IMG/VR virus record: IMGVR_UViG_3300021086_000002
Coordinates: 1 to 60,371 of that record
DNA: 60,371 nt
Strand: one strand, 5' to 3'
Source: a virus
Lineage: Duplodnaviria > Caudoviricetes
Every line of letters starts with the position of its first letter. Position 1 is the first letter of the stretch. Below, one piece after another: positions 1-60,371 of this stretch. The notes beneath the pieces are model-generated. The model saw nothing but the letters and a program-made list of their open reading frames with translations, did not search any database and was not told the DNA's origin. Position numbers and translations under genes: made by a program.

Positions 1-121
1 CCCGCCCGTTTGAGCTGTACGAGGTGGACGCGGAGGAGTGGGCGGCCGAGCAGGCGCCCGCGCTGACGGCCAGCGTGCGCTCCGCCGGCTGGGCAGACGT
101 GTCCGTGGCTGACCCCGATAC
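1..121. repeat. Terminal direct repeat (assembly overlap of a circular or circularly permuted genome), copy 1
   Basis: 1-121 is identical to 60251-60371, and an ORF reads through the junction in frame. Confidence 0.95.
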
Positions 122-3603: not shown

Positions 3604-3893
3604 AACAGCACCCGCGCTCGGACGGCGTACCCGGTGTAGTGGTTGTTACCATCGAGCAGTCGGCCGGGCTCGTCGCGGTCAAGTCCAACGTCTGTCCAGG
3701 ACCACGGACCGTTGGAGCCGCTGGCCTGAGCCAGCTCGATGGCCTTGACGCGGGAGGTGAGGGCGTCGGCATAGAGGAGCATGTGGCGCTCGCCCGGAGC
3801 GTGTAGGGCGTAGATGTACGTGTGTATCGGTGCCTCCTTGGGGCACAGCTCGCCGCGCTTGACCGCAGCACAGTACGCGACTTCGTTACACAT
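3600..3893 (-). CDS. Hypothetical protein
   Basis: Translationally coupled within the leftward operon. Confidence 0.55.
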   Translation of the reverse strand: MCNEVAYCAAVKRGELCPKEAPIHTYIYALHAPGERHMLLYADALTSRVKAIELAQASGSNGPWSWTDVGLDRDEPGRLLDGNNHYTGYAVRARVLL

Positions 3894-4088: not shown

Positions 4089-4319
4089 TCAGTGCCTCTC
4101 TCTCATGGTCTTGTAGACCTCGTGCCAGCGAAGATCAGAGCTGCCGCACTTCTTGCAGTACAGCAGGGGGTAGTCGATGGGGTTGTACTTCTTCCAGTCG
4201 AAGTCGGCGGGCACGTCGCAAAGGTTGTAGTTCTGGCGCCGGGACTGTCCGCAGATCTGGATCTTGCCGTCCCGGGTCAGGTGGAAGGTCCCGTTGGTGC
4301 TGGCCTTAATTCGCATCAC
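4089..4319 (-). CDS. Small Cys/His (possible Zn-binding) protein
   Basis: FH...ICG...YCKKC; coupled ORF. Confidence 0.55.
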   Translation of the reverse strand: MMRIKASTNGTFHLTRDGKIQICGQSRRQNYNLCDVPADFDWKKYNPIDYPLLYCKKCGSSDLRWHEVYKTMRERH

Positions 4320-4558
4320 TCGTCGTCCGTCGTCTCGTATTTGCTGACGTAGTTGCGGGTGATCTCGTCCTGCCGGTCCAGGGATCGCAGTTTGTCGGCC
4401 CGAAGGTCCGCGAAGTGCAACGCCTCACGGGCGCCTTCCGACATCTGCAACATGAGCGCCGCGTACTGCGCCGGGAACATGCGACCGAGCTTGCGGGTGA
4501 GCAAGAGAACGGCTTCGTCGGTGGCCTGCTGGTCCGTGTAGTCCTGGATCTTCTTCAC
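4316..4558 (-). CDS. Hypothetical protein
   Basis: RBS GAGGAGG; first gene downstream of promoter 4577-4617. Confidence 0.65.
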   Translation of the reverse strand: MKKIQDYTDQQATDEAVLLLTRKLGRMFPAQYAALMLQMSEGAREALHFADLRADKLRSLDRQDEITRNYVSKYETTDDE

Positions 4559-26414: not shown

Positions 26415-26719
26415 TCAAACCACGTTTCCCCGGTAACGGCATCTCGGTATTGCGTTCGTTTCGGCGTGCTGGGCAAGCCGCTAGGTATGCCACGGTCCAG
26501 GGGCCGACCGCTAGGTATGCCACGGTCCAGGGGCCGGGCCTGGTCACGCAGCCAACGGCGAACGGTCTGTCGTGCGAATCCCGAGTCGTCGGTAAACGGC
26601 GTGTCACTCAGCGCCTCAAGCACGCGGATAAACACGGATGTGTCTGCGACCATGACTGATCCGACGATCTCGGCCAGTGTGTCGAGGTCTTCGTACAGGT
26701 CGCTCTGCTTCTGGTCCAT
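26411..26719 (-). CDS. Hypothetical protein, VRRWxxDQ family
   Basis: LYEDLD...IRVLEAL...VRRWLRDQ; contains a 30-bp tandem duplication. Confidence 0.6.
   Translation of the reverse strand: MDQKQSDLYEDLDTLAEIVGSVMVADTSVFIRVLEALSDTPFTDDSGFARQTVRRWLRDQARPLDRGIPSGRPLDRGIPSGLPSTPKRTQYRDAVTGETWFE
26478..26536. repeat. 30-bp tandem duplication
   Basis: CCGCTAGGTATGCCACGGTCCAGGGGCCG occurs twice (RPLDRGIPSG x2). Confidence 0.9.
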
Positions 26720-28403: not shown

Positions 28404-28928
28404 CTAGTTGTGCAGGGCCGTGACCAGGACGGAAGCTCCGCTCAGCGAGAGGAGACCGGTGTTCTTGACCACGACGTTTACCGTGCCGGAGCCGGTCACC
28501 GTGGTGCTCAGGACCGACAGGGCGGAGATCAGGGGCGCCCCACCAAGCACGAGAGCGACAGCCTGGTACGAGCTGTCGGCGAAGCCAGGCTGAAGGGTGA
28601 CCGCGACGGTGGCCTGCGCGTTGCTGCCGAGCAGGGGGACGACACCGATCCCGATGGAGATCAGGTCGCCGGAGGCGATGAACGGGTAGAAGTGGTTCGT
28701 GGTGAACAGGTTGCCCGCGATGCGCCCGTAGTGCGGATTGTCGCTCCACTTCCGGGTCACCCAGTCGCCGATGTCGTAGTTGTAGTTCGGCGACAGGAGG
28801 GTAGTGCCGGACAGGTTGCAGGTGTTGGGCGCGTACAGGCTGTCGATGTAGGCCATGATGTCGGCGGCGTTCGTCCCGTCGTACTGGACGGCGTCGATGG
28901 TCTCGCCGTACTTCGTCCAGGTGACCAT
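28404..28928 (-). CDS. Hypothetical protein
   Basis: DAVQYDGTN N-terminal domain plus beta-rich C-terminus. Confidence 0.6.
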   Translation of the reverse strand: MVTWTKYGETIDAVQYDGTNAADIMAYIDSLYAPNTCNLSGTTLLSPNYNYDIGDWVTRKWSDNPHYGRIAGNLFTTNHFYPFIASGDLISIGIGVVPLLGSNAQATVAVTLQPGFADSSYQAVALVLGGAPLISALSVLSTTVTGSGTVNVVVKNTGLLSLSGASVLVTALHN

Positions 28929-28955
28929 GAATAACCGACTCTCTGTAGAGGATTG

Positions 28956-29000
28956 TGTGGCTGGCCGGCCGGCCTCAGTATCGGTCGACTGGCCAGCCAC
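28956..29000. terminator. Hairpin downstream of the replication/recombination operon
   Basis: TGTGGCTGGCC / GGCCAGCCACA stem. Confidence 0.5.
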
Positions 29001-29039
29001 ACGGTTCCCCGCTTCGGCCGGACTGGATCTCCGTTACGG

Positions 29040-29261
29040 TCAGACCCGCTCGAAGTCCATGGTGTGCATCCAGTCCTCCGCGCCGGACAGCGGGTCCCGG
29101 AACCGGAAGACCTGGCCGTCTCCCATGTCGCAGCCGTCACCAGGTCGGTACCCGTGTGGCGGGTCGTAGTGGGGCTCGTCGCAGGGCTTGATCTCCAGCA
29201 CCTCGACCACGAACGGGACGGCGTCCATCTGGACCCTGTCGCCGATCTTGAATTTAGACAT
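29040..29261 (-). CDS. Hypothetical protein
   Basis: MSKFKIGDRV start; RBS AAGGAG. Confidence 0.6.
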   Translation of the reverse strand: MSKFKIGDRVQMDAVPFVVEVLEIKPCDEPHYDPPHGYRPGDGCDMGDGQVFRFRDPLSGAEDWMHTMDFERV

Positions 29262-48989: not shown

Positions 48990-49402
48990 TGGAGGAAGAC
49001 GAGCCGGTAGGGCTGGCTCAGGCCACCCACCTGACCGTGCTGTTCGCTACGCTGCTCGGCCTGGCGGAGTCCGATCCGGAGGTCTGGGCCAAGGCGGCGG
49101 ACGATGTCCGCAAGGCCAGGGCTATCGATATCGAGCTGGAGCGGGCCGGCATTGCGTACCCGCACGGGCTCGGCGGCGTACTGGCGCTGATCGAGCAGCG
49201 AGACGCCGCCGGAGCGAACCTGAAGGCGGTTCTGGCGACTCTTCAGTTGAGAGTCGAGGAGGTTCGGGAGCTACGCGGGGTGCTTCGACAGATCCTGGAG
49301 GTCTGTCAGGTGTCGGCGGAGTCGAACGCGAAAGCTCGTCGTCAGGCGCTCGCGGAGATCACGGTGGTGGCGTCAGAGCACGTCTGGCCCGACTGGAGTT
49401 GA
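48989..49402 (+). CDS. Coiled-coil hypothetical protein
   Basis: TGATG-coupled ORF. Confidence 0.5.
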   Translation: MEEDEPVGLAQATHLTVLFATLLGLAESDPEVWAKAADDVRKARAIDIELERAGIAYPHGLGGVLALIEQRDAAGANLKAVLATLQLRVEEVRELRGVLRQILEVCQVSAESNAKARRQALAEITVVASEHVWPDWS

Positions 49403-49415
49403 GGGAGTAGAGACC

Positions 49416-49619
49416 ATGGACGTGTTGGCGAAGGTGTCGGTGCCTACCGACGGAGTCTCCGGCTGGATCACACCGGCCCATATCGGCCTGACCCTGGCCT
49501 TCCTGCTGGTGGGGTGGGGTGTGGTGAGAGTCTGGCAGTCGTTGCCGAAGGGCGTGCTGATCTTCGTGCTCGTGCTGGCGGCCGTGGCGGCGGGAGTGCT
49601 GTCACTCAACGTGCACTAG
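49416..49619 (+). CDS. Small membrane protein
   Basis: Two TM segments; RBS GGGAG. Confidence 0.55.
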   Translation: MDVLAKVSVPTDGVSGWITPAHIGLTLAFLLVGWGVVRVWQSLPKGVLIFVLVLAAVAAGVLSLNVH

Positions 49620-49951
49620 TCGTGTCGAACTTGTGTTCGAATTTGTAGGGCCGTACTTGACAACTCGTCGGGTGCGGCCCTACCTTTGCCTCATGACACA
49701 GCTCCAGGTGGACCGAGTGACCCAGGTAGGACTGCGCCTGCTCGGGCTGGTGGGCACGCTCGGGCTCGCCGCGTCACTGGCCATGCTGTCCGTTGGCGGC
49801 ACCCGGGGAACCCTGGCGGCCTTCCACCTGTACGGGCACCTGCGCTCGGCGGCCGACCAGGCAGTACCGGCCTTCATGGTCACGATGCTGATCGTGGTCT
49901 GGCCGTTGACGACGCTGATCCTCGCGCCACGTCGGCCGGTACGCTCGGGCT

Positions 49952-51433
49952 ATGTCCCGCTCGCCGCTGGAAGAGTTGGCCGCGTTGTCGCCGGCCGTGC
50001 GGGAGCAGTTCGTGGCCGCACAGCCCGACTGGGTCATCCGAGACATGCGGCTGGGCGAGTGGTGGTGGACCGCGCGACCCGAGCAGCGCACCCCGCCCGG
50101 TGACTGGTTCGTCTGGCTGATCCGCTCCGGACGAGGTTTCGGCAAGACCCGCACCGGCTCTGAGTGGCTGGTCGACCGGGCCATCCGATACCCGGCCGAC
50201 ACCTCGGGCTTCCCCACTGAGCACCTGCTGATCGCCGAGACGCTCACCGACGCGATGCGCCACTGCGTGTACGGACCGGCCGGCGTGCGGCGGGTGCTCC
50301 ACCGGAAGATCGGCGACGAGTCGAAGAAGCCGAGCGACGGCGGTAAGTGGCGGATGCTGAAGACCCCCAAGCCCTCGATCGAGATCCTGGAGACCGGCAC
50401 CAAGATCTACATTGAGGGGGCTGACGACGAAGACGTGGGCCGTGGATACAACGCCGCGTCGGCGTGGCTGGACGAGTTCGCCAAATGGCGCAAGCCGGAC
50501 GGCTCCTGGGCCGAGGGCATCATGCCCGGTCTGCGGGCCAACATTCCCGGCGACCACCCGCGCGCCTGCGTCACCACCACCCCGAAGCTCGTGCTTCAGC
50601 TCGTGGAGTGGATCAGGCGTACCGACAGCTCCGTGTGCGTCACCTCGGGATCCACCTACGACAACGCCGGTAACCTGTCCGCCCGCATGCTTGCCGAGCT
50701 GCACCGCCGGTACCACGGAACCCGGCTCGGTCGGCAGGAGCTGCTCGGCGAGCTGATCGAGGAGATCGAGGGCGCACTGTGGCGCCTGGACGACATCGAG
50801 CCGTACAAGGTTGACACCATTCCCTGTCGGCTGATCAACATCGTGGTCGGGCTCGACCCCGCCGGCTCCGGAACCAAGGACGAGAGTGGCATGATCGCCG
50901 CTGGCCGGGGAGCGGACGGTCACGACTACGTCCTGGGTGACTGGTCCAAGCAGGTGGCCGGCCGCGAGGCGGCACGGCGCGTCTGGGAGATGTACGACAC
51001 CTACGGCGCAACCGTGCTGCTCTACGAGAAGAACATGGGCCAGAAGTGGCTGTCAGACGTGCTGTTCCAGGCATACCGAGAACTCCAGCGTGAGGGCGTC
51101 TTCCCGCCGGGGGGCAACCCGCCAATGCGGTCGATCGACGCCAAGGTGAAGAAGCGGGTCCGGGCGGAGCCGGTGGCCATGCGGTACGAGCAGCACCGGG
51201 TGCACCACGTCCGCAAGGGGCTGGCCGACCTGGAGACTCAGATGATCTCGTGGGTTCCGGAGGAGACCTCGGAGTCACCGGACCGTATCGACGCCCTGGT
51301 ATACGCACTGCTCCACCTGGCCGGCCGGGAGGCCATGGCCGGGACCATCACGGTGCCGGACGGCGGCGGCCTTACCCGTGGCGACCTGTCCCCGCTGGCT
51401 GGCTCCGGCGCGATGCCGGGACCGTACGGGTGA
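49952..51433 (+). CDS. terL: Terminase large subunit
   Basis: Walker A GRGFGKT, Walker B WLDE, TTTP, VVGLDPA nuclease, SPDRIDA. Confidence 0.92.
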   Translation: MSRSPLEELAALSPAVREQFVAAQPDWVIRDMRLGEWWWTARPEQRTPPGDWFVWLIRSGRGFGKTRTGSEWLVDRAIRYPADTSGFPTEHLLIAETLTDAMRHCVYGPAGVRRVLHRKIGDESKKPSDGGKWRMLKTPKPSIEILETGTKIYIEGADDEDVGRGYNAASAWLDEFAKWRKPDGSWAEGIMPGLRANIPGDHPRACVTTTPKLVLQLVEWIRRTDSSVCVTSGSTYDNAGNLSARMLAELHRRYHGTRLGRQELLGELIEEIEGALWRLDDIEPYKVDTIPCRLINIVVGLDPAGSGTKDESGMIAAGRGADGHDYVLGDWSKQVAGREAARRVWEMYDTYGATVLLYEKNMGQKWLSDVLFQAYRELQREGVFPPGGNPPMRSIDAKVKKRVRAEPVAMRYEQHRVHHVRKGLADLETQMISWVPEETSESPDRIDALVYALLHLAGREAMAGTITVPDGGGLTRGDLSPLAGSGAMPGPYG

Positions 51434-51483
51434 GTCTCCGCCGAGATTCGCCGAGACTCGCCGGTATAATGTAGAGTCTCGGC
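51432..51483 (+). promoter_or_regulatory. Cassette promoter with repeated operator-like boxes
   Basis: TATAAT at 51465-51470; direct repeats CCGAGA(T/C)TCG x2; inverted copy GAGTCTCGGC at 51474-51483. Confidence 0.65.
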
Positions 51484-51488
51484 AGAGA

Positions 51489-51548
51489 GGCTGGGCCAGG
51501 CATGGCACGGCTCGGCGTGGTTGGGCAAGGCTCGGCGTGGTAGGGCAG
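51489..51548 (+). repeat. GGY-NN pentamer array 1 (12 units; candidate guide RNA)
   Basis: GGCTG GGCCA GGCAT GGCAC GGCTC GGCGT GGTTG GGCAA GGCTC GGCGT GGTAG GGCAG. Confidence 0.9.
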
Positions 51549-51576
51549 GGGAAACCATCGAGAGAGGACCAAGATC

Positions 51577-52182
51577 GTGCAGATAAAGGTGCAGCTACTC
51601 GGTACGATGCCACTGCTCATGCACAACGATCGGTTGGCGGATCCGTCCAATGAATGGACTCGGAAGATTGCCGCGATCACCGACAAGGGCAAGAACATGA
51701 CCGATCAGGATCTTCAGATGAAGTCGCGGCTGGAGTTCGAGGGTGGTCTCTACTACAGCCAGGCGAATGATGGGCCATACGTGCCGGCTCACAACCTGGT
51801 GCGCACCCTGGTCGCGGCGGGTACGCTCCGGCGTTTGGGTACCAAGATCTCTCAGGCGGTCTTTCCCATCACGACGGCGCTGCTTCTCCAGTATGCCAAG
51901 GCGCCGAACGGTAAGCAGGGTCCACGAGATGTGGATGGACTGTGGGCTGATGGCTACTGGGATCGACGCATGGTGGGTGTCAACAAGAATCGGGTGCAGC
52001 GCACCCGGCCGGCCTTCCCCTGCTGGTCTACCACGGCAGACCTGTTGCTGCTGGAGGATGTGTTGAATCCCGACGACTTCGAATGGGCCTGCACGATGGC
52101 CGGTAAGGCGATCGGCCTGGGCGACGCTCGTCGGATTGGCATGGGGCGATTCGAGGTAAAGACGGAGGTTGCCGAACCGTGA
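51577..52182 (+). CDS. Stand-alone RAMP/Cas7-like RNA-binding protein
   Basis: N-terminal strand plus PLLMH, PYVP..NL...L, C-terminal Gly loop AG..IGLGD.R..GMGRF; RBS GAGAGG. Confidence 0.7.
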   Translation: MQIKVQLLGTMPLLMHNDRLADPSNEWTRKIAAITDKGKNMTDQDLQMKSRLEFEGGLYYSQANDGPYVPAHNLVRTLVAAGTLRRLGTKISQAVFPITTALLLQYAKAPNGKQGPRDVDGLWADGYWDRRMVGVNKNRVQRTRPAFPCWSTTADLLLLEDVLNPDDFEWACTMAGKAIGLGDARRIGMGRFEVKTEVAEP

Positions 52183-52652
52183 CTGGCCTGTTCCGGTCCA
52201 GCCGGGAAGATGGGCGAGCGGACTGGCGTGTGGTGTTTGACCGACTGAACCAGATGCGATCGGGCGATGTCGTTACCCATGTCCATCTGCGTGACCTGCT
52301 GGGTACTGAGGATAACGCCCGGATGTACCGGGCAGTTCAGCGAGCGAAGGCTGAGCTGTGGTCCAGCCGGCAGACCTCTATCGACAGCATCCGGGGCGTG
52401 GGGTACCGGATGCTCGCCGCCTCCGAGATGGAGCGGCAGGCCATGCAGTACAAACGCAGATCGCGCAAGCAACTGGGCAACGCTGTATCCGTGGTCCAGG
52501 CTACCGACCTGGACCAGTTGACCTCTGAGGAGCGCGGTCTGACACTGCGTACCCGGGGGGTGCTGCTGGCGCTGGCTCAGGCCATGGACGAGACCATGGT
52601 CAAGGTTGCCGATCATGAGGAGCGTCTCCGCAAGCTGGAGGCTGGCCAGTAA
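52179..52652 (+). CDS. Winged-helix-like accessory protein with coiled-coil tail
   Basis: GDVVT...L..LLG...SIRGVGYR wing motif; GTGA-coupled to the RAMP-like gene. Confidence 0.55.
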   Translation: MTGLFRSSREDGRADWRVVFDRLNQMRSGDVVTHVHLRDLLGTEDNARMYRAVQRAKAELWSSRQTSIDSIRGVGYRMLAASEMERQAMQYKRRSRKQLGNAVSVVQATDLDQLTSEERGLTLRTRGVLLALAQAMDETMVKVADHEERLRKLEAGQ

Positions 52653-52659
52653 GGCAAGA

Positions 52660-52709
52660 GGTATGGCCCGGTGTGGCTAGGCATGGCAGGGCACGGTGCG
52701 GCGTGGCGT
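52660..52709 (+). repeat. GGY-NN pentamer array 2 (10 units; candidate guide RNA)
   Basis: GGTAT GGCCC GGTGT GGCTA GGCAT GGCAG GGCAC GGTGC GGCGT GGCGT. Confidence 0.9.
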
Positions 52710-52710
52710 G

Positions 52711-52750
52711 GAGATTGAGACCGGCTTCGACAGAGGCCGGTCTCAATCTC
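52711..52750 (+). terminator. 18-bp hairpin closing the cassette
   Basis: GAGATTGAGACCGGCTTC-GACA-GAGGCCGGTCTCAATCTC (one G-U pair). Confidence 0.8.
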
Positions 52751-52798
52751 ATATGGACGGCCGTCCCGTGGTCGGCACGTCGCCGGTACGCTCTCACC

Positions 52799-53137
52799 AT
52801 GCCACCCATGATCTACCTGGCCGTGTACGCGCTGGCCGTTGCCCGGGTGGTTCGAGTGATCACCACCGATCGGATCACCCAAGGGCCGCGTGAACGGCTG
52901 ATCTCCCGGCTGTGGCAGCGGCACCTCCGGCGCATGCCGGCGGAAACGCTGGTGCCCGAGGAACTCCCGGAGCCGCTCACGATCACCCTCGTGCGCTGCC
53001 CCTGGTGTCTCTCCGTGTGGGCCGGCGCGGTGGCGGCCCCGATGGTCTGGCAGGCCGGCCGCAGTCCCTGGCTCTGGGTGCCGGCGCTCGCGCTCGCATT
53101 CAGCCAGACAACCGGCTTACTGGCCCGGGGGGAGTAG
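52799..53137 (+). CDS. DUF1360-like membrane protein
   Basis: ARVVRVITTDRIT..PR...CPWCLSVW; immediately upstream of the portal gene. Confidence 0.7.
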   Translation: MPPMIYLAVYALAVARVVRVITTDRITQGPRERLISRLWQRHLRRMPAETLVPEELPEPLTITLVRCPWCLSVWAGAVAAPMVWQAGRSPWLWVPALALAFSQTTGLLARGE

Positions 53138-53140
53138 CGG

Positions 53141-55057
53141 GTGGCAGCGTTCCGTCGCAAGAGCGTGATCGTGCCGCCGGCCGTGTCGCCAATGGGTCGG
53201 GCCGCCGGACTGGCCGTGCGGGAGCAGGGGTCGCTGGTCGCGGCGGCGGCGCAGATTCCGCTGGAGCCGGTTAAAACGGTCAACCTGCGTATTCGTGATG
53301 AAGAGTGGCAACAGGAAGCTTGGCGACATTACGATATCAACGGCGAGCTGCGCTTCGTGGCCAACCGTCACGCCGCCGCGCTGTCCCGCTGTCGGATCTA
53401 CGTTGCCCGGGTCGACAAGGCCACCGGCAAGCCCGGCAAGGAAGCCACCGACCCGCAGGTCCAGATTCTCTCCGAGACCATCTTCGGCGGCGTGACGGCC
53501 AAGGCCGAGGGGATGCGCATCATCGGCATCCAGCTCTACATCGCCGGTGAGGGGTACATCGTCGCGGAGGGAGCCAATAAGAGCGACGGTGACACCTGGT
53601 ACGTGGTCTCGGTCAAGGAGTTGAAGAAGGAGTCGGGCGGCATCCAGGTAAAGCGCCCGATGACCATCGGGGGCGGCTGGAAGCAGCTCGTCAAGGGCCA
53701 GGATCTGCTGATGCGGTGCTGGACACCGCACCCTCGGCTGTACGACGTGGCCGACTCCCCGACCCGGGCGGTACTGCCGATCCTGCGGGAGATCGAGCGG
53801 CTGACCATGCTCACCTTCTCGCAGATCGACAGCCGGCTGATCTCCGCTGGCCTCCTGCTGTTGCGTGAGGGCATCGACTTCCCGCACAAGGAAGGCCAGA
53901 CCCCGGAGCAGGCGCTGGCTGACACCATTGTGGAGGTGGCCCGCCGTCAGCTTACCGGCGCGGGGACGGCTGCTGGCCTGGTGCCGATCATCGCCACCGT
54001 GCCGACTGGCGTTGATGGGCGCTGGTCGGACGTGGCGAACTCCTTCGCCCACGTCAAGTTCGACACGCCGCTGACGGCCGAGCTGGAGAAGAAGCTCGAC
54101 CAGGCCATCCGGCGACTTGCCATGGGGCTGGAGATTGCACCGGAAGACCTCCTCGGCCAGGGTGACTCGAACCACTGGGCCGGCTGGCAGATCGAGGAGT
54201 CTTCGATCAAGCTGTTCATCGAGCCGGCTCTGGCCCGGGTGTGCGACTCGCTGAACCAGGCGTACCTGAAGCCAGCCCTGAAGTCGCTCGGGATCGACCC
54301 GGACGAGTACACGCTGTGGTACGACACGTCCGAACTGGTGGTCCGACCCAACCGCCAGGCAGACGCGATCGAGCTGTGGAACCTGGGCCAGCTCAGCGAC
54401 GATTCCTTGCGCAAGGCGGGCGCCTGGGACGACTCAGACAAGCCGAACAACAAGCAGGCTCAGCGCTGGATCGCGCTCCAGCTCGTCAAGCTCCAGCCCC
54501 AGCTCATCGGCGACCCCGTCATCGCCGATCTCCTCGGGATGCCGGCGGGCATCCAAGTTCCCGGCAGCCCCGGCCAGCAGCCCCCACCTGAGGCTGGCAT
54601 GCCGCCGGGCCAGGAGCTGCTTCCCGCTCAGGGGGCCGGCCAGCCCAATGCGCTGCCGACCATGCCCACCAAACAGCAGAGCCCAGCTCAGGACGGTCAG
54701 CAGTACGCCGCGCTGCTCGCCGGCTCAGAACAGGCGGTACTGCGGGCACTGGAGCTGGCCGGCGGTCGGCTCCTGGACCGACAGAACCGGGGCCGACTCG
54801 GTCTCTTCGCCAAGGCGGAGATCCACACGCAGGTGCGCGCCCGCGACCACGACCACGCGGCCGAGCTGATGGCCGGCGCCTGGACGCACATCCCCGCGCT
54901 GGCCCGACACTTCGGCGTGCACCCGGACGACCTTCAGGAGCTGCTCGGTGGCTACTGCGCGGAGCTGCTGATGCGCGGCCTGCCCCACGAGTCCGGATAC
55001 CTGGAGTACGCCCTCCAACGCTCAGGCGCCCTGCGCCCGGCGGTCGGTGTCGGATGA
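53141..55057 (+). CDS. Portal protein
   Basis: WQQEAW..YD..GELRF...WTPHPR...DSPTR...IRRLA.GL...NHW..WQI.E. Confidence 0.85.
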   Translation: MAAFRRKSVIVPPAVSPMGRAAGLAVREQGSLVAAAAQIPLEPVKTVNLRIRDEEWQQEAWRHYDINGELRFVANRHAAALSRCRIYVARVDKATGKPGKEATDPQVQILSETIFGGVTAKAEGMRIIGIQLYIAGEGYIVAEGANKSDGDTWYVVSVKELKKESGGIQVKRPMTIGGGWKQLVKGQDLLMRCWTPHPRLYDVADSPTRAVLPILREIERLTMLTFSQIDSRLISAGLLLLREGIDFPHKEGQTPEQALADTIVEVARRQLTGAGTAAGLVPIIATVPTGVDGRWSDVANSFAHVKFDTPLTAELEKKLDQAIRRLAMGLEIAPEDLLGQGDSNHWAGWQIEESSIKLFIEPALARVCDSLNQAYLKPALKSLGIDPDEYTLWYDTSELVVRPNRQADAIELWNLGQLSDDSLRKAGAWDDSDKPNNKQAQRWIALQLVKLQPQLIGDPVIADLLGMPAGIQVPGSPGQQPPPEAGMPPGQELLPAQGAGQPNALPTMPTKQQSPAQDGQQYAALLAGSEQAVLRALELAGGRLLDRQNRGRLGLFAKAEIHTQVRARDHDHAAELMAGAWTHIPALARHFGVHPDDLQELLGGYCAELLMRGLPHESGYLEYALQRSGALRPAVGVG

Positions 55058-59679: not shown

Positions 59680-60371
59680 ATGTCGGATCAAGACACACCA
59701 TGCACCGACTGCCCCGACGACGACTTCGCCACGGTGACCGCGACCGACGAGGCCGAGCCGAACACCGCACCGGACCCACGGGGCACCAAGCTGACCCGTT
59801 GGCGCGGATTGCTGGCGCCCATCGGGAAGCCCACCGGCGACGGCCGGCGGTTCTCCACCACGCCGGGCGCACTGACCCACCGGGATCTCCCGCAGCCGGT
59901 GAAGTGGCAGCGGACCGATGCCCAGGGGCACGCCACCTCGGTGGTGGTGGGCACCATGGACCGGATCCGGATTGGCAACGGGGACCACGGACTGGGCGTG
60001 TATGCCGAGGGGACTCTGTTCGACCCGGACCCAGAGCAGCTTCCCCGGCTGGCCGAAGACGTGGCGGAGGCCAAGCTGCTTCTGAGCCAGCGGGTCATCG
60101 GGCCATCCGTCGATCTGGACGCGATGGAGTTTCACGCCATGCCTGGCCAGGAGGGCGAGCTGGCCCAGGAGGGTAAGCGGCCTGACATCGAGGTGGACAA
60201 GGGTCGGATCTCGGCCGCCACCTTGGTGCCGATCCCCGCGTTCGCTGAGGCCCGCCCGTTTGAGCTGTACGAGGTGGACGCGGAGGAGTGGGCGGCCGAG
60301 CAGGCGCCCGCGCTGACGGCCAGCGTGCGCTCCGCCGGCTGGGCAGACGTGTCCGTGGCTGACCCCGATAC
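59680..60371 (+). CDS. Capsid maturation protease, N-terminal part (wraps to 1508)
   Basis: RBS AAGGAGG, ATG 59680; WRGLLAP.G.PTGDGR.F...GH..SVVVG...GPSVDLD...AATLV.IPAF.EA. Confidence 0.8.
   Translation, partial: MSDQDTPCTDCPDDDFATVTATDEAEPNTAPDPRGTKLTRWRGLLAPIGKPTGDGRRFSTTPGALTHRDLPQPVKWQRTDAQGHATSVVVGTMDRIRIGNGDHGLGVYAEGTLFDPDPEQLPRLAEDVAEAKLLLSQRVIGPSVDLDAMEFHAMPGQEGELAQEGKRPDIEVDKGRISAATLVPIPAFAEARPFELYEVDAEEWAAEQAPALTASVRSAGWADVSVADPD
60251..60371. repeat. Terminal direct repeat, copy 2
   Basis: Identical to 1-121. Confidence 0.95.

What the first reader, a model, noticed from the sequence alone, without database searches (positions are those of the whole stretch)
52653..52750. Array 2: 10 GGY-NN units (AT CC GT TA AT AG AC GC GT GT) capped by a long hairpin
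Seen: begins right after the stop of the second gene with a leader (GGCAAGA) similar to that of array 1 (GGCAGAGA). It has a different NN string (9/20 G+C) and abuts an 18-bp stem-loop. Inference: a second, independently programmed guide with a protected 3' end. If one base is skipped per unit, the NNs would read codon positions 1-2 and ignore the wobble base (e.g. ATn CCn GTn TAn ATn AGn ACn GCn GTn GTn), which would resist synonymous escape.
Basis: partly seen in the sequence, partly recalled or inferred. Interest (0 to 1): 0.82.

Follow-up and report, generated by a model that had tools for sequence, protein, structure and literature searches.

The report
Phage VIPR guide RNA array
This stretch is very probably the second guide RNA of a VIPR system, a CRISPR-like RNA-guided DNA-silencing machine first described in 2026, found here in an uncultured soil phage of actinobacteria; it is real, but a new example of a known kind.

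Summary
There are ten perfect GGY-NN units at 52660-52709, with the NN string as reported, and an 18-bp hairpin at 52711-52750. The only other such array in the 60-kb phage genome has 12 units (51489-51548). In 200 shuffles the longest run was 6 or fewer.

The two arrays flank a two-gene cassette. The 201-aa protein is a full-length homologue of the solved SUSP1 Vipr protein (E 3.7e-48) and folds like Cas7. The 157-aa protein falls in the same PHROG family as SUSP1 vap1. Of 80 related viral loci, 74 carry GGYNN arrays on the vipr strand and 3 on the other strand.

Preprints from 2026 show that such vrRNAs guide a Vipr filament to double-stranded DNA. The NN bases pair with the target, and one target base is skipped per unit, often the wobble base.

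Two things remain unshown for this locus. No natural target was found in any collection scanned, and no RNA data exist. It also differs from SUSP1: the tail is a plain hairpin rather than a pseudoknot, array 1 has no stable tail and abuts the vipr ribosome-binding site, and some contact residues differ.

Verdict: a new member of a known kind.

The parts
51448..51477 (+). Candidate promoter of the cassette. It comprises a conserved block TCGCCGAGACTCGCC (51448-51462), a TATAAT (51465-51470) and a -10-like TAGAGT (51472-51477), 11 nt before array 1.
   Evidence: The block and TAGAGTCTC are conserved with the closest relative L006, although the flanking genes differ. TAnnnT-like hexamers lie 8-14 nt before the upstream arrays in several relatives (flanks printed; my reading). 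The sigma-70 consensus scan found none. Inferred, not tested.
51481..51553 (+). vrRNA1. It comprises the leader GGCAGAGA (51481-51488), 12 perfect GGYNN units (51489-51548; NN = TG CA AT AC TC GT TG AA TC GT AG AG) and a 13th GG unit, GGGAA (51549-51553). It ends 23 nt before the vipr start, over the ribosome-binding site region.
   Evidence: No stable 3' structure: the fold has z = -0.54. Units 5-8 and 9-12 form a 20-nt duplication.
51577..52182 (+). vipr, encoding a 201-aa minimal RAMP (Cas7-like) protein (P0001/P0003). Start codon GTG, preceded by GAGAGAGGA.
   Evidence: phrog_4652 at E 1.7e-30; SUSP1 Vipr falls in the same family at 1.4e-96. A profile of the window protein plus 21 relatives matches PDB 36pp_D 'SUSP1 Vipr protein' at E 3.7e-48 over residues 2-190, the only PDB match. 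The AlphaFold2 model has pLDDT 94.6. Foldseek top hits are Cmr4, Csm3 and type VII Cas7, from E 2.9e-6. VIA-align gives Z 11.1 to Csm3, and the top 22 rows are all CRISPR RAMPs.
52179..52652 (+). vap (vap1-like accessory gene), 157 aa (P0002). Its GTG start overlaps the vipr stop (GTGA). It has an N-terminal winged-helix-like domain and a C-terminal pair of long helices.
   Evidence: phrog_5926 at E 7.2e-8; SUSP1 vap1 matches the same family at 1.1e-75, the LittleE gene at 6.5e-43 and the Medea1 gene at 1.3e-67. BLASTP to LittleE gp33 gives 5e-11 and to SUSP1 vap1 gives 7e-4. The model has pLDDT 90.3. The N-terminal residues 7-79 match the PurR winged helix at Z 8.8, rmsd 2.3 over 68 residues. 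Foldseek gives only weak matches (E 0.02 or higher) to OmpR-, GntR- and MarR-type winged-helix domains.
52653..52709 (+). vrRNA2 guide region (the finding). It comprises the leader GGCAAGA (52653-52659) and 10 perfect GGYNN units (52660-52709; NN = AT CC GT TA AT AG AC GC GT GT).
   Evidence: In the relatives L006 and L041 the downstream array likewise starts 4 and 3 nt after the vap stop.
52711..52750 (+). 3' tail of vrRNA2: an 18-bp hairpin with loop GACA and no run of U after it.
   Evidence: z = -5.1. The terminator scan did not call it.

Best explanation
The array at 52653-52750 is the second VIPR RNA (vrRNA2) of a type II-like VIPR system (Viral Interference Programmable Repeat). The system is carried by a complete 60-kb soil phage of actinobacteria. 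It consists of vrRNA1, vipr, vap and vrRNA2, lying between the large terminase and the portal genes. By homology with the SUSP1 and P. fulva systems, the cassette is transcribed from its own promoter and the arrays are released as RNAs of roughly 60-100 nt. One Vipr protomer binds each GGYNN unit, and together they form a helical filament. Each GGY is flipped out and held by the protein. The ten NN dinucleotides are presented for pairing with double-stranded DNA that reads ATnCCnGTnTAnATnAGnACnGCnGTnGT on one strand. One target base is skipped per unit, often a codon's third base. Binding represses transcription of the target, most likely a competing phage, prophage or satellite in the same host, and the winged-helix Vap protein assists. 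The hairpin caps the 3' end, which is where filament and R-loop formation start in SUSP1. Shown here: the sequence features, the homology, the fold and the co-occurrence of arrays with vipr. Inferred from the published homologues: transcription, processing, Vipr binding, the skip rule and repression.
For: The array is far beyond chance. The Vipr homology is full-length: E 3.7e-48 to the solved SUSP1 Vipr chain, using a profile that holds no SUSP1 sequence. tblastn finds SUSP1 at 28486-29052 (H40), which is the CDS YP_009199429.1, the protein that paper 759431 names as Vipr. The fold is Cas7-like. The G-loop-like motif GLGDxR..GRF is conserved. In the alignment with SUSP1 Vipr, four of the residues that paper 720927 (section 5) lists as GGY contacts are kept: H17=H16, R138=R144, D177=D183 and R179=R185. 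R138 and D177 are the two shown there to be essential by mutation. vap is in the same PHROG family as SUSP1 vap1. The layout of one array upstream and one or more downstream matches SUSP1, where my scan finds 1 upstream and 3 downstream, as the paper reports. Same-strand GGYNN arrays occur in 74 of 80 related IMG/VR loci, against 3 of 80 on the opposite strand. They also occur in LittleE, Trine, Medea1 and Mushroom. There is no self-target in the phage genome at 3 or fewer mismatches, as the paper reports for its systems. The published mechanism comes from the Results of 10.64898/2026.04.26.720920, sections 5-6 of 10.64898/2026.04.26.720927 and the abstract of 10.64898/2026.10.15.759431.
Against: Nothing was measured on this locus. 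No RNA run holds it. No DNA matching the full 1-nt-skip pattern of either array was found: with 3 or fewer mismatches in the window and own genome, or exactly in viral contigs, genome contigs and metagenome contigs. Patterns of 9 of the 10 units of array 2 and 10 of the 12 units of array 1 also found nothing in viral contigs. My own skip-rule test, 217 guides against about 0.7 Mb of fetched loci, showed no excess for the 1-nt rule. Best hits at 80% or more numbered 45 for skip 1, against 34, 36 and 42 for skips 0, 2 and 3. At 85% or more they numbered 4, against 11, 4 and 8. The tail is a plain hairpin, not the SUSP1 pseudoknot, and the two arrays share no tail. Array 1 has no stable 3' structure. 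The SUSP1 contact residues W178, E71/M72 and K33 align to A184, H/N and A32 here, and K33 was essential in SUSP1.
Confidence: 0.88

Rival explanations
1. The array makes a Vipr-binding RNA that is not a DNA guide. It could be a decoy or sponge that titrates Vipr, whether the phage's own or a competitor's. For array 1, it could be a leader on which filament assembly controls vipr translation.
For: No target was found for either array. Array 1 ends 23 nt before the vipr start, over the ribosome-binding site, and has no tail. Paper 759431 describes vrRNAs that redirect Vipr to decoy sites (abstract).
Against: The NN strings of the two arrays differ. Across 191 distinct arrays all 16 dinucleotides are used, as expected for programmable guides. 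The published decoys still work by guiding Vipr to DNA. Missing targets are expected for a soil phage whose competitors have not been sequenced.
Confidence: 0.06
2. The repeats act as DNA. They could be a row of binding sites for the winged-helix Vap protein or for the packaging machinery (a pac-like site beside the terminase gene), with GG on one face every half helical turn.
For: The cassette lies next to the large terminase gene both here and in L006. Vap has a winged-helix-like domain.
Against: The arrays are strictly co-oriented with vipr: 74 of 80 loci on the same strand and 3 of 80 on the opposite strand, which a duplex-DNA site does not need. In other phages the cassette sits among tail, replication or ligase genes, far from the terminase. 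Homologous arrays are transcribed and co-purify with Vipr (paper 720920).
Confidence: 0.03
3. The stretch is coding or an incidental structure. It could be part of the mechanical ORF 52673-53137, an N-terminal extension of the DUF1360 protein. Or it could be a run of two-tier G-quadruplexes (G2N3 repeats) that acts as a transcription or translation barrier.
For: ORF 52673-53137 is open through the array and hairpin. Comparable arrays have been annotated as CDS in LittleE (gp35) and Trine (gp40). GG every 5 nt could in principle form G-quartets (my inference).
Against: The conservation has period 5, not 3. The Pfam DUF1360 match starts at residue 11 of the short form that begins at 52799. The pyrimidine kept at position 3 of every unit has no role in a quadruplex, but it is read by a protein pocket in the solved complex.
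Confidence: 0.02

Closest known systems
Type II VIPR system of Escherichia phage SUSP1 (vrRNA1, vipr, vap1, vrRNA2-4), described in bioRxiv 10.64898/2026.04.26.720920, 720927 and 2026.10.15.759431
   Same: The gene pair is the same: vipr in phrog_4652 and vap in phrog_5926. The Vipr homology is full-length. Both have GGYNN arrays of 10-15 units on the same strand, one upstream and the rest downstream. Both have a structured 3' end after the last unit. Both are phage-borne and neither self-targets.
   Different: Vipr is only 24-25% identical. The tail is a plain 18-bp hairpin rather than a conserved pseudoknot, and the two arrays share no tail. The window has two arrays, not four. Array 1 abuts the vipr ribosome-binding site. 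W178, E71/M72 and K33 are not conserved. The host is a high-G+C actinobacterium, and position 3 of the units is mostly C rather than T. The cassette lies between the terminase and portal genes.
Backbone of class 1 CRISPR-Cas effector complexes (Cas7 family: Csm3, Cmr4, Csf2, type VII Cas7) bound to crRNA
   Same: The predicted fold is the same: Z 8.2-11.1 over 124-166 aligned residues for the top 21 rows. In the published VIPR structures the logic is also shared: one protomer per RNA segment, and a thumb that flips bases at a fixed period.
   Different: The window has no CRISPR array, no cas1 or cas2 and no other cas gene; the only repeat of about CRISPR size is a 2-copy 30-nt duplication at 26478-26536. 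The period is 5 nt, with 3 guide bases flipped, rather than 6 nt with 1. The guide is noncontiguous. Spacers are not acquired between repeats. The target is double-stranded DNA, read with one base skipped per unit.
Solo (orphan) vrRNAs of satellites and of phages without VIPR genes (10.64898/2026.10.15.759431, abstract and passages)
   Same: Both are GGYNN arrays followed by a tail.
   Different: The window's arrays sit directly beside their own vipr and vap genes, so they are not solo. No further arrays occur elsewhere in the genome.
TRAP (trp RNA-binding attenuation protein) bound to (G/U)AG repeats spaced by 2-3 nt (recalled from general knowledge, not from any call)
   Same: An RNA with a conserved triplet and a variable spacer, at a period of about 5 nt, is read by many copies of one small protein.
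   Different: The protein fold is unrelated, since the fold here is Cas7-like. In TRAP the spacers carry no information. TRAP regulates its own operon and does not target DNA.

Membership tests
VIPR system (Vipr + vrRNA) | A Vipr protein homologous to the characterised Vipr proteins | tested here: met
   A profile of the window protein plus 21 relatives, with no SUSP1 sequence in it, matches PDB 36pp_D 'SUSP1 Vipr protein' at E 3.7e-48 over 2-190. It is the only PDB match at E 0.01 or better. Both proteins are in phrog_4652. tblastn to SUSP1 gives E 3e-10.
VIPR system (Vipr + vrRNA) | A minimal RAMP fold: a single RRM core with a glycine-rich loop and a thumb | tested here: met
   The model has pLDDT 94.6. 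Foldseek matches Cmr4, Csm3 and type VII Cas7 at E 2.9e-6 to 1e-4. VIA-align gives Z 11.1 (rmsd 3.5, 155 residues aligned), and the top 22 rows are all CRISPR RAMPs. GLGDxR..GRF is conserved at the C-terminus. I did not inspect the thumb and G-loop in 3D; I assigned them from the alignment with SUSP1.
VIPR system (Vipr + vrRNA) | Residues that hold the GGY motif in SUSP1 Vipr (not stated to be family-defining) | tested here: inconclusive
   Kept: H17, R138, D177 and R179, aligning to H16, R144, D183 and R185 (residue roles). Not kept at the aligned columns: W178 to A184, E71/M72 to H/N, and K33 to A32. Relatives in the same clade also vary at these columns.
VIPR system (Vipr + vrRNA) | Tandem GGY/NN (YNNGG) repeats flanking vipr on its strand; the paper gives 9-16 units, and at least 4 for calling | tested here: met
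   12 and 10 perfect units on the + strand, 29 nt before vipr and 7 nt after vap. Longest run in 200 shuffles: 6.
VIPR system (Vipr + vrRNA) | A structured 3' tail after the repeat tract | tested here: inconclusive
   Array 2 has an 18-bp hairpin, z = -5.1. Array 1 has no structure beyond chance, z = -0.54. Neither resembles the SUSP1 tail sequence seen. Paper figures S9 and S17 and the supplementary data could not be seen.
VIPR system (Vipr + vrRNA) | An accessory vap gene next to vipr (type II: vap1, a predicted DNA-binding protein) | tested here: met
   phrog_5926 is shared with SUSP1 vap1. The N-terminal domain is winged-helix-like. The type II assignment is my inference; the type definitions are in figures and data I could not see.
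VIPR system (Vipr + vrRNA) | The arrays are expressed as discrete small RNAs that co-purify with Vipr | not testable with these tools
   The only runs listed are two soil DNA metagenomes, and no RNA run is listed.
VIPR system (Vipr + vrRNA) | A natural DNA target that obeys the 1-nt skip rule | tested here: inconclusive
   No match was found in the window or own genome (3 or fewer mismatches), or in viral contigs, genome contigs and metagenome contigs (exact). Sub-patterns found nothing either. The collection scans take exact matches only, while the papers accept 80% or more NN match.
CRISPR-Cas (class 1) | A CRISPR array of 25-40-nt direct repeats separated by spacers, with cas genes beyond a single RAMP | tested here: not met
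   No such repeat family exists in the window. The neighbours are terminase, DUF1360 and portal genes. PADLOC finds nothing for the three cassette-region proteins.

The most novel reading that the evidence does not exclude
In this actinophage branch the vrRNA 3' end may be an exchangeable module rather than a fixed pseudoknot handle. Three forms are seen: a plain hairpin (vrRNA2 here), nothing at all (vrRNA1 here, and both arrays of the closest relative L006), and in other relatives a tRNA-like acceptor/T-arm minihelix that would recruit host RNase P or RNase Z to cut the arrays apart. The tail-less vrRNA1 lies 23 nt before the vipr start codon. It may therefore have a second role as an autoregulatory leader: Vipr filament growth on its own mRNA would cover the ribosome-binding site and limit Vipr synthesis.
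Probability: 0.2. Interest if true: 0.6.

Novelty: new member of a known kind. Interest (0 to 1): 0.4.

Why it matters
VIPR is a newly described class of RNA-guided DNA recognition with a noncontiguous code, and it has been proposed as an ancestor of the CRISPR RAMPs. All the experiments I read used Escherichia and Pseudomonas systems. This locus is a complete and compact example in a high-G+C soil actinophage: two guides, about 1.3 kb, with only about 25% identity to SUSP1 Vipr. It keeps the two GGY contacts shown by mutation to matter (the R138 and D177 equivalents) but changes others, including the K33 equivalent, which mutation also showed to be essential in SUSP1, and it lacks the pseudoknot tail. 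It is therefore a useful natural variant for asking which parts of the system are essential, and a candidate tool for actinobacteria. It is also a case where a reader with no tools recovered the published mechanism from sequence alone.

Tried and rejected
Rfam found no match at E 1 or better in 49000-55000. In eight related loci it found only a true tRNA in L079. Pfam, NCBIfam and PADLOC found nothing for Vipr or Vap.

blastn of 51400-52800 against the phage collection found no match.

The target searches under the 1-nt skip rule all found nothing. I did not run 8-unit sub-patterns, because by my estimate chance hits would outnumber any signal.

I ran a local skip-rule test with 217 guides of 8-30 units. 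These came from 276 arrays called in 74 loci plus the window; the 59 shorter or longer arrays were dropped. The targets were all fetched loci plus the window, with arrays masked and each guide's own locus excluded. There was no enrichment for skip 1, and no best hit of 85% or more lay in the window. The target set is small and holds only VIPR neighbourhoods, so this does not test the rule.

Expression: no RNA holder is listed. Read laying was not used, because DNA contigs cannot show an RNA.

Vap: Foldseek found no match at E 0.001 or better. The PDB sequence profile gave nothing at E below 0.09. The search for homologous proteins returned only 2 relatives, so I built the Vap alignment from 8 translated IMG/VR ORF stretches plus those 2. 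I left out L019 and L031; L031 is near-identical to L033, and the start of L019 is unclear.

The sigma-70 and terminator scans called neither the candidate promoter nor the hairpin.

The inverted repeat CCGAGACTC/GAGTCTCGG around the -10 region is not kept in L006, so I dropped the operator idea.

The leader similarity GGCAAGA/GGCAGAGA is real but not conserved in relatives. I give it no weight.

A CRISPR-like reading with a 6-nt period was rejected, because the period is strictly 5.

The supplements of all four papers were closed. Type definitions, tail structures of types other than II, and lists of loci may be there. I cannot say whether this genome or the tRNA-like tails are already listed.

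Full report
THE OBSERVATION. The window is a complete virus record of 60371 bases with direct terminal repeats. It has 66% G+C. The stop codon of a 157-aa gene lies at 52650-52652. Directly after it come GGCAAGA and then ten perfect GGY-NN units at 52660-52709. An 18-bp hairpin with loop GACA occupies 52711-52750. The whole stretch folds at -66.1 kcal/mol, z = -5.1, and none of 200 shuffles folds as well.

The only other run of five or more such units, on either strand, is the 12-unit array 1 at 51489-51548. In 200 dinucleotide-preserving shuffles the longest run was 3-4 units in 195 shuffles, 5 in four and 6 in one.

THE SURROUNDINGS. All the genes below lie on the + strand, in this order:
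- the large terminase (49952-51433)
- array 1
- a 201-aa gene (51577-52182)
- a 157-aa gene (52179-52652), whose GTG start overlaps the preceding stop
- array 2 with its hairpin
- a DUF1360 membrane protein (52799-53137)
- the portal gene (53141-55057)

Pfam, NCBIfam and PADLOC do not recognise the two middle genes. They fall in phrog_4652 (E 1.7e-30) and phrog_5926 (E 7.2e-8), both of unknown function.

THE SAME MODULE IN OTHER PHAGES. tblastn with the 201-aa protein finds 128 phage records. Most are Felixounavirus-like coliphages. Others include Mycobacterium phage LittleE, Gordonia phage Trine and Pseudomonas phage Medea1. In LittleE, Medea1, Mushroom and SUSP1 the gene is followed by a phrog_5926 gene. 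Period-5 GGYNN arrays flank the pair on the same strand. In Trine the arrays lie just downstream, inside an annotated CDS.

A scan of IMG/VR gave 80 loci that encode relatives. Of these, 74 carry at least one array of five or more perfect units on the gene's strand, all within about 1.8 kb of it. Only 3 of 80 carry one on the opposite strand. The six loci without a same-strand array are L025, L027, L028, L049, L059 and L082.

THE LITERATURE. A full-text search led to a 2026 preprint, 10.64898/2026.04.26.720920. I read its outline, its whole Results section and Methods sections 18, 20, 26 and 27, plus term-search passages. It describes VIPR systems, which have three parts:
- a minimal RAMP protein, Vipr
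- an accessory gene, vap
- vrRNAs made of 9-16 YNNGG repeats followed by a structured 3' tail

In SUSP1 and a P. fulva prophage the vrRNAs are expressed as transcripts of about 100 nt and co-purify with Vipr. They direct binding to double-stranded DNA through the NN dinucleotides, with one target base skipped per unit. Natural targets lie mostly in coding sequence, with the skipped base at the wobble position. Binding represses transcription. The targets are satellites and prophages.

I also consulted three further preprints:
- 10.64898/2026.04.26.720927 is the structural companion. I read its abstract, sections 5, 6 and 18, and passages. It shows one protomer per repeat in a helical filament. 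GGY is flipped out and held by H17, D177, R138, W178, R179 and others. The skipped target base sits in a pocket.
- 10.64898/2026.10.15.759431: I read the abstract and passages. It shows the biology in infection and names YP_009199429.1 as SUSP1 Vipr.
- 10.64898/2026.10.21.760802: I read passages only. It recovers VIPR arrays by their 5-nt entropy period.

MEMBERSHIP. The SUSP1 hit is the CDS YP_009199429.1. My scan finds one array upstream and three downstream of it, as the paper reports. A profile built from the window protein and 21 metagenomic relatives, with no SUSP1 sequence in it, matches the PDB chain 36pp_D, 'SUSP1 Vipr protein'. The match has E 3.7e-48 over residues 2-190 and is the only PDB match.

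The AlphaFold2 model (pLDDT 94.6) matches Cas7-family RAMPs. Foldseek gives E from 2.9e-6. VIA-align gives Z 11.1 to Csm3, and the top 22 rows are all CRISPR RAMPs. In the alignment with SUSP1 Vipr, H17, R138, D177 and R179 are conserved. W178, E71/M72 and K33 are not.

The 157-aa protein shares phrog_5926 with SUSP1 vap1. Its model (pLDDT 90.3) has a winged-helix-like N-terminal domain, with Z 8.8 to the PurR winged helix. Foldseek support for this is only weak. Two long helices follow the domain.

I therefore file the locus as a VIPR system, type II-like. The type assignment is my inference, because the type definitions are in material I could not see.

WHAT WAS NOT SHOWN. The gapped pattern of array 2, and that of array 1, has no match in four places:
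- the phage's own genome, at 3 or fewer mismatches
- IMG/VR contigs, exact match
- 185,579 species genomes, exact match
- JGI metagenome contigs, exact match

Sub-patterns of nine of the ten units of array 2, and ten of the twelve units of array 1, find nothing in IMG/VR. The absence of self-targets agrees with the paper. The absence of outside targets leaves the natural target unknown. The collection scans accept exact matches only, and the competitors of a soil actinophage may not have been sequenced.

My own comparison of skip lengths on the fetched loci showed no preference, but that target set is too small to be informative. No RNA run holds the locus.

The portal protein's nearest cultured relative is Actinoplanes phage phiAsp2, at 33% identity. 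The organisms tallied for the 877 matching records are almost all phages of actinobacteria. The host is therefore inferred to be an actinobacterium.

DIFFERENCES FROM THE CHARACTERISED SYSTEMS.
- The tail of vrRNA2 is a plain hairpin without a U-run.
- vrRNA1 has no stable 3' structure. It ends 23 nt before the vipr start, over the ribosome-binding site.
- In one search, 13 of 80 relatives have an array ending within 50 nt of the start of the vipr match.
- The closest relative is L006 (Vipr 49% identical, Vap 57%, terminase 49%). It has no hairpin after either array, and its cassette lies upstream of the terminase rather than downstream.
- A block TCGCCGAGAsTCGCC...TAGAGTCTC upstream of array 1 is shared with L006. 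It is a candidate promoter.
- Across 191 distinct arrays from loci with 60% or more G+C (1987 perfect units), all 16 NN dinucleotides occur. NN is 48.5% G+C, and position 4 is 63% purine. The window's NN strings, at 45% and 42% G+C, are typical.

VERDICT. It is a new member of a known kind. Confidence that it is a VIPR guide RNA is 0.88. Its target and its expression remain to be shown.

Noticed in passing
L001 (LittleE) 2729-2795, 2864-2925, 4190-4250, 4319-4392; L009, L010, L011, L013, L020, L032, L038, L042, L044, L047, L050, L072, L081 (tails after arrays): In 13 of 80 related loci (29 of 274 arrays), and in LittleE, a T-loop-like GTTCRANYC motif lies 15-71 nt after the array. An alignment of 21 such tails folds into a 6-bp stem with a 7-nt loop, stacked directly on a 4-bp outer stem, like a tRNA T-arm plus acceptor stem. 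9 of the 10 pairs show compensatory changes. ARAGORN calls no tRNA at these tails, apart from the call in L013 listed as a separate item, and Rfam finds none in the loci it was given. 'tRNA' occurs 0 times in the main text of the three VIPR preprints, and no paper holds VIPR, vrRNA and tRNA-like together. Supplements could not be seen. This suggests that host RNase P or RNase Z processes the arrays.
   Followed up: partly
L001 2557-2946 (LittleE gp35, minus strand); L002 3591-4394 (Trine gp40): CDS annotated as hypothetical proteins lie over GGYNN arrays (L001 2669-2728 and 2794-2863; L002 3634-3693 and 3758-3802). These are probably mis-called ORFs over vrRNA genes.
   Followed up: partly
L006 4001-6568 versus window 49952-52750: In the closest relative, the vipr-vap-array cassette lies directly upstream of the terminase gene; the array ends 11 nt before the terminase start. 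In the window it lies downstream of the terminase. The cassette has therefore moved within the packaging region.
   Followed up: partly
window 51448-51477: A block TCGCCGAGACTCGCC plus TAGAGTCTC is conserved with L006 upstream of array 1. A perfect TATAAT lies at 51465-51470. The block is a candidate cassette promoter, but the sigma-70 consensus scan did not call it.
   Followed up: partly
window 51504-51547: Array 1 contains a 20-nt internal duplication: units 5-8 (TC GT TG AA) against units 9-12 (TC GT AG AG). This suggests that arrays grow by duplicating blocks of units.
   Followed up: no
L006-L085 arrays: In 1987 units from high-G+C loci, position 3 is C in 85%. NN is 48.5% G+C, well below the 60% or more of the loci. 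Position 4 is purine in 63%. The purine bias would fit codon first positions, but I did not test this against codon tables.
   Followed up: partly
window 41-71 and 60291-60321: The same 12-nt repeat unit is reported near both ends of the window. This fits the direct terminal repeats recorded for the virus genome.
   Followed up: no
window 26478-26536: A perfect tandem duplication of a 30-nt unit, the highest-scoring tandem repeat in the window (score 118). Its function was not examined.
   Followed up: no
window 49508-49527: Four GGTGN units at period 5 lie inside a small ORF (49416-49619, 67 aa). The run is no longer than the 3-4 units typical of shuffles, and there is no vipr nearby. I take it as coding or chance.
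   Followed up: no
L013 3815-3908: ARAGORN calls a 94-nt 'tRNA-Ala (ggc)' that overlaps a GGYNN array (3802-3871) and its T-loop-like tail. It is probably a false tRNA call caused by the tRNA-like tail.
   Followed up: no
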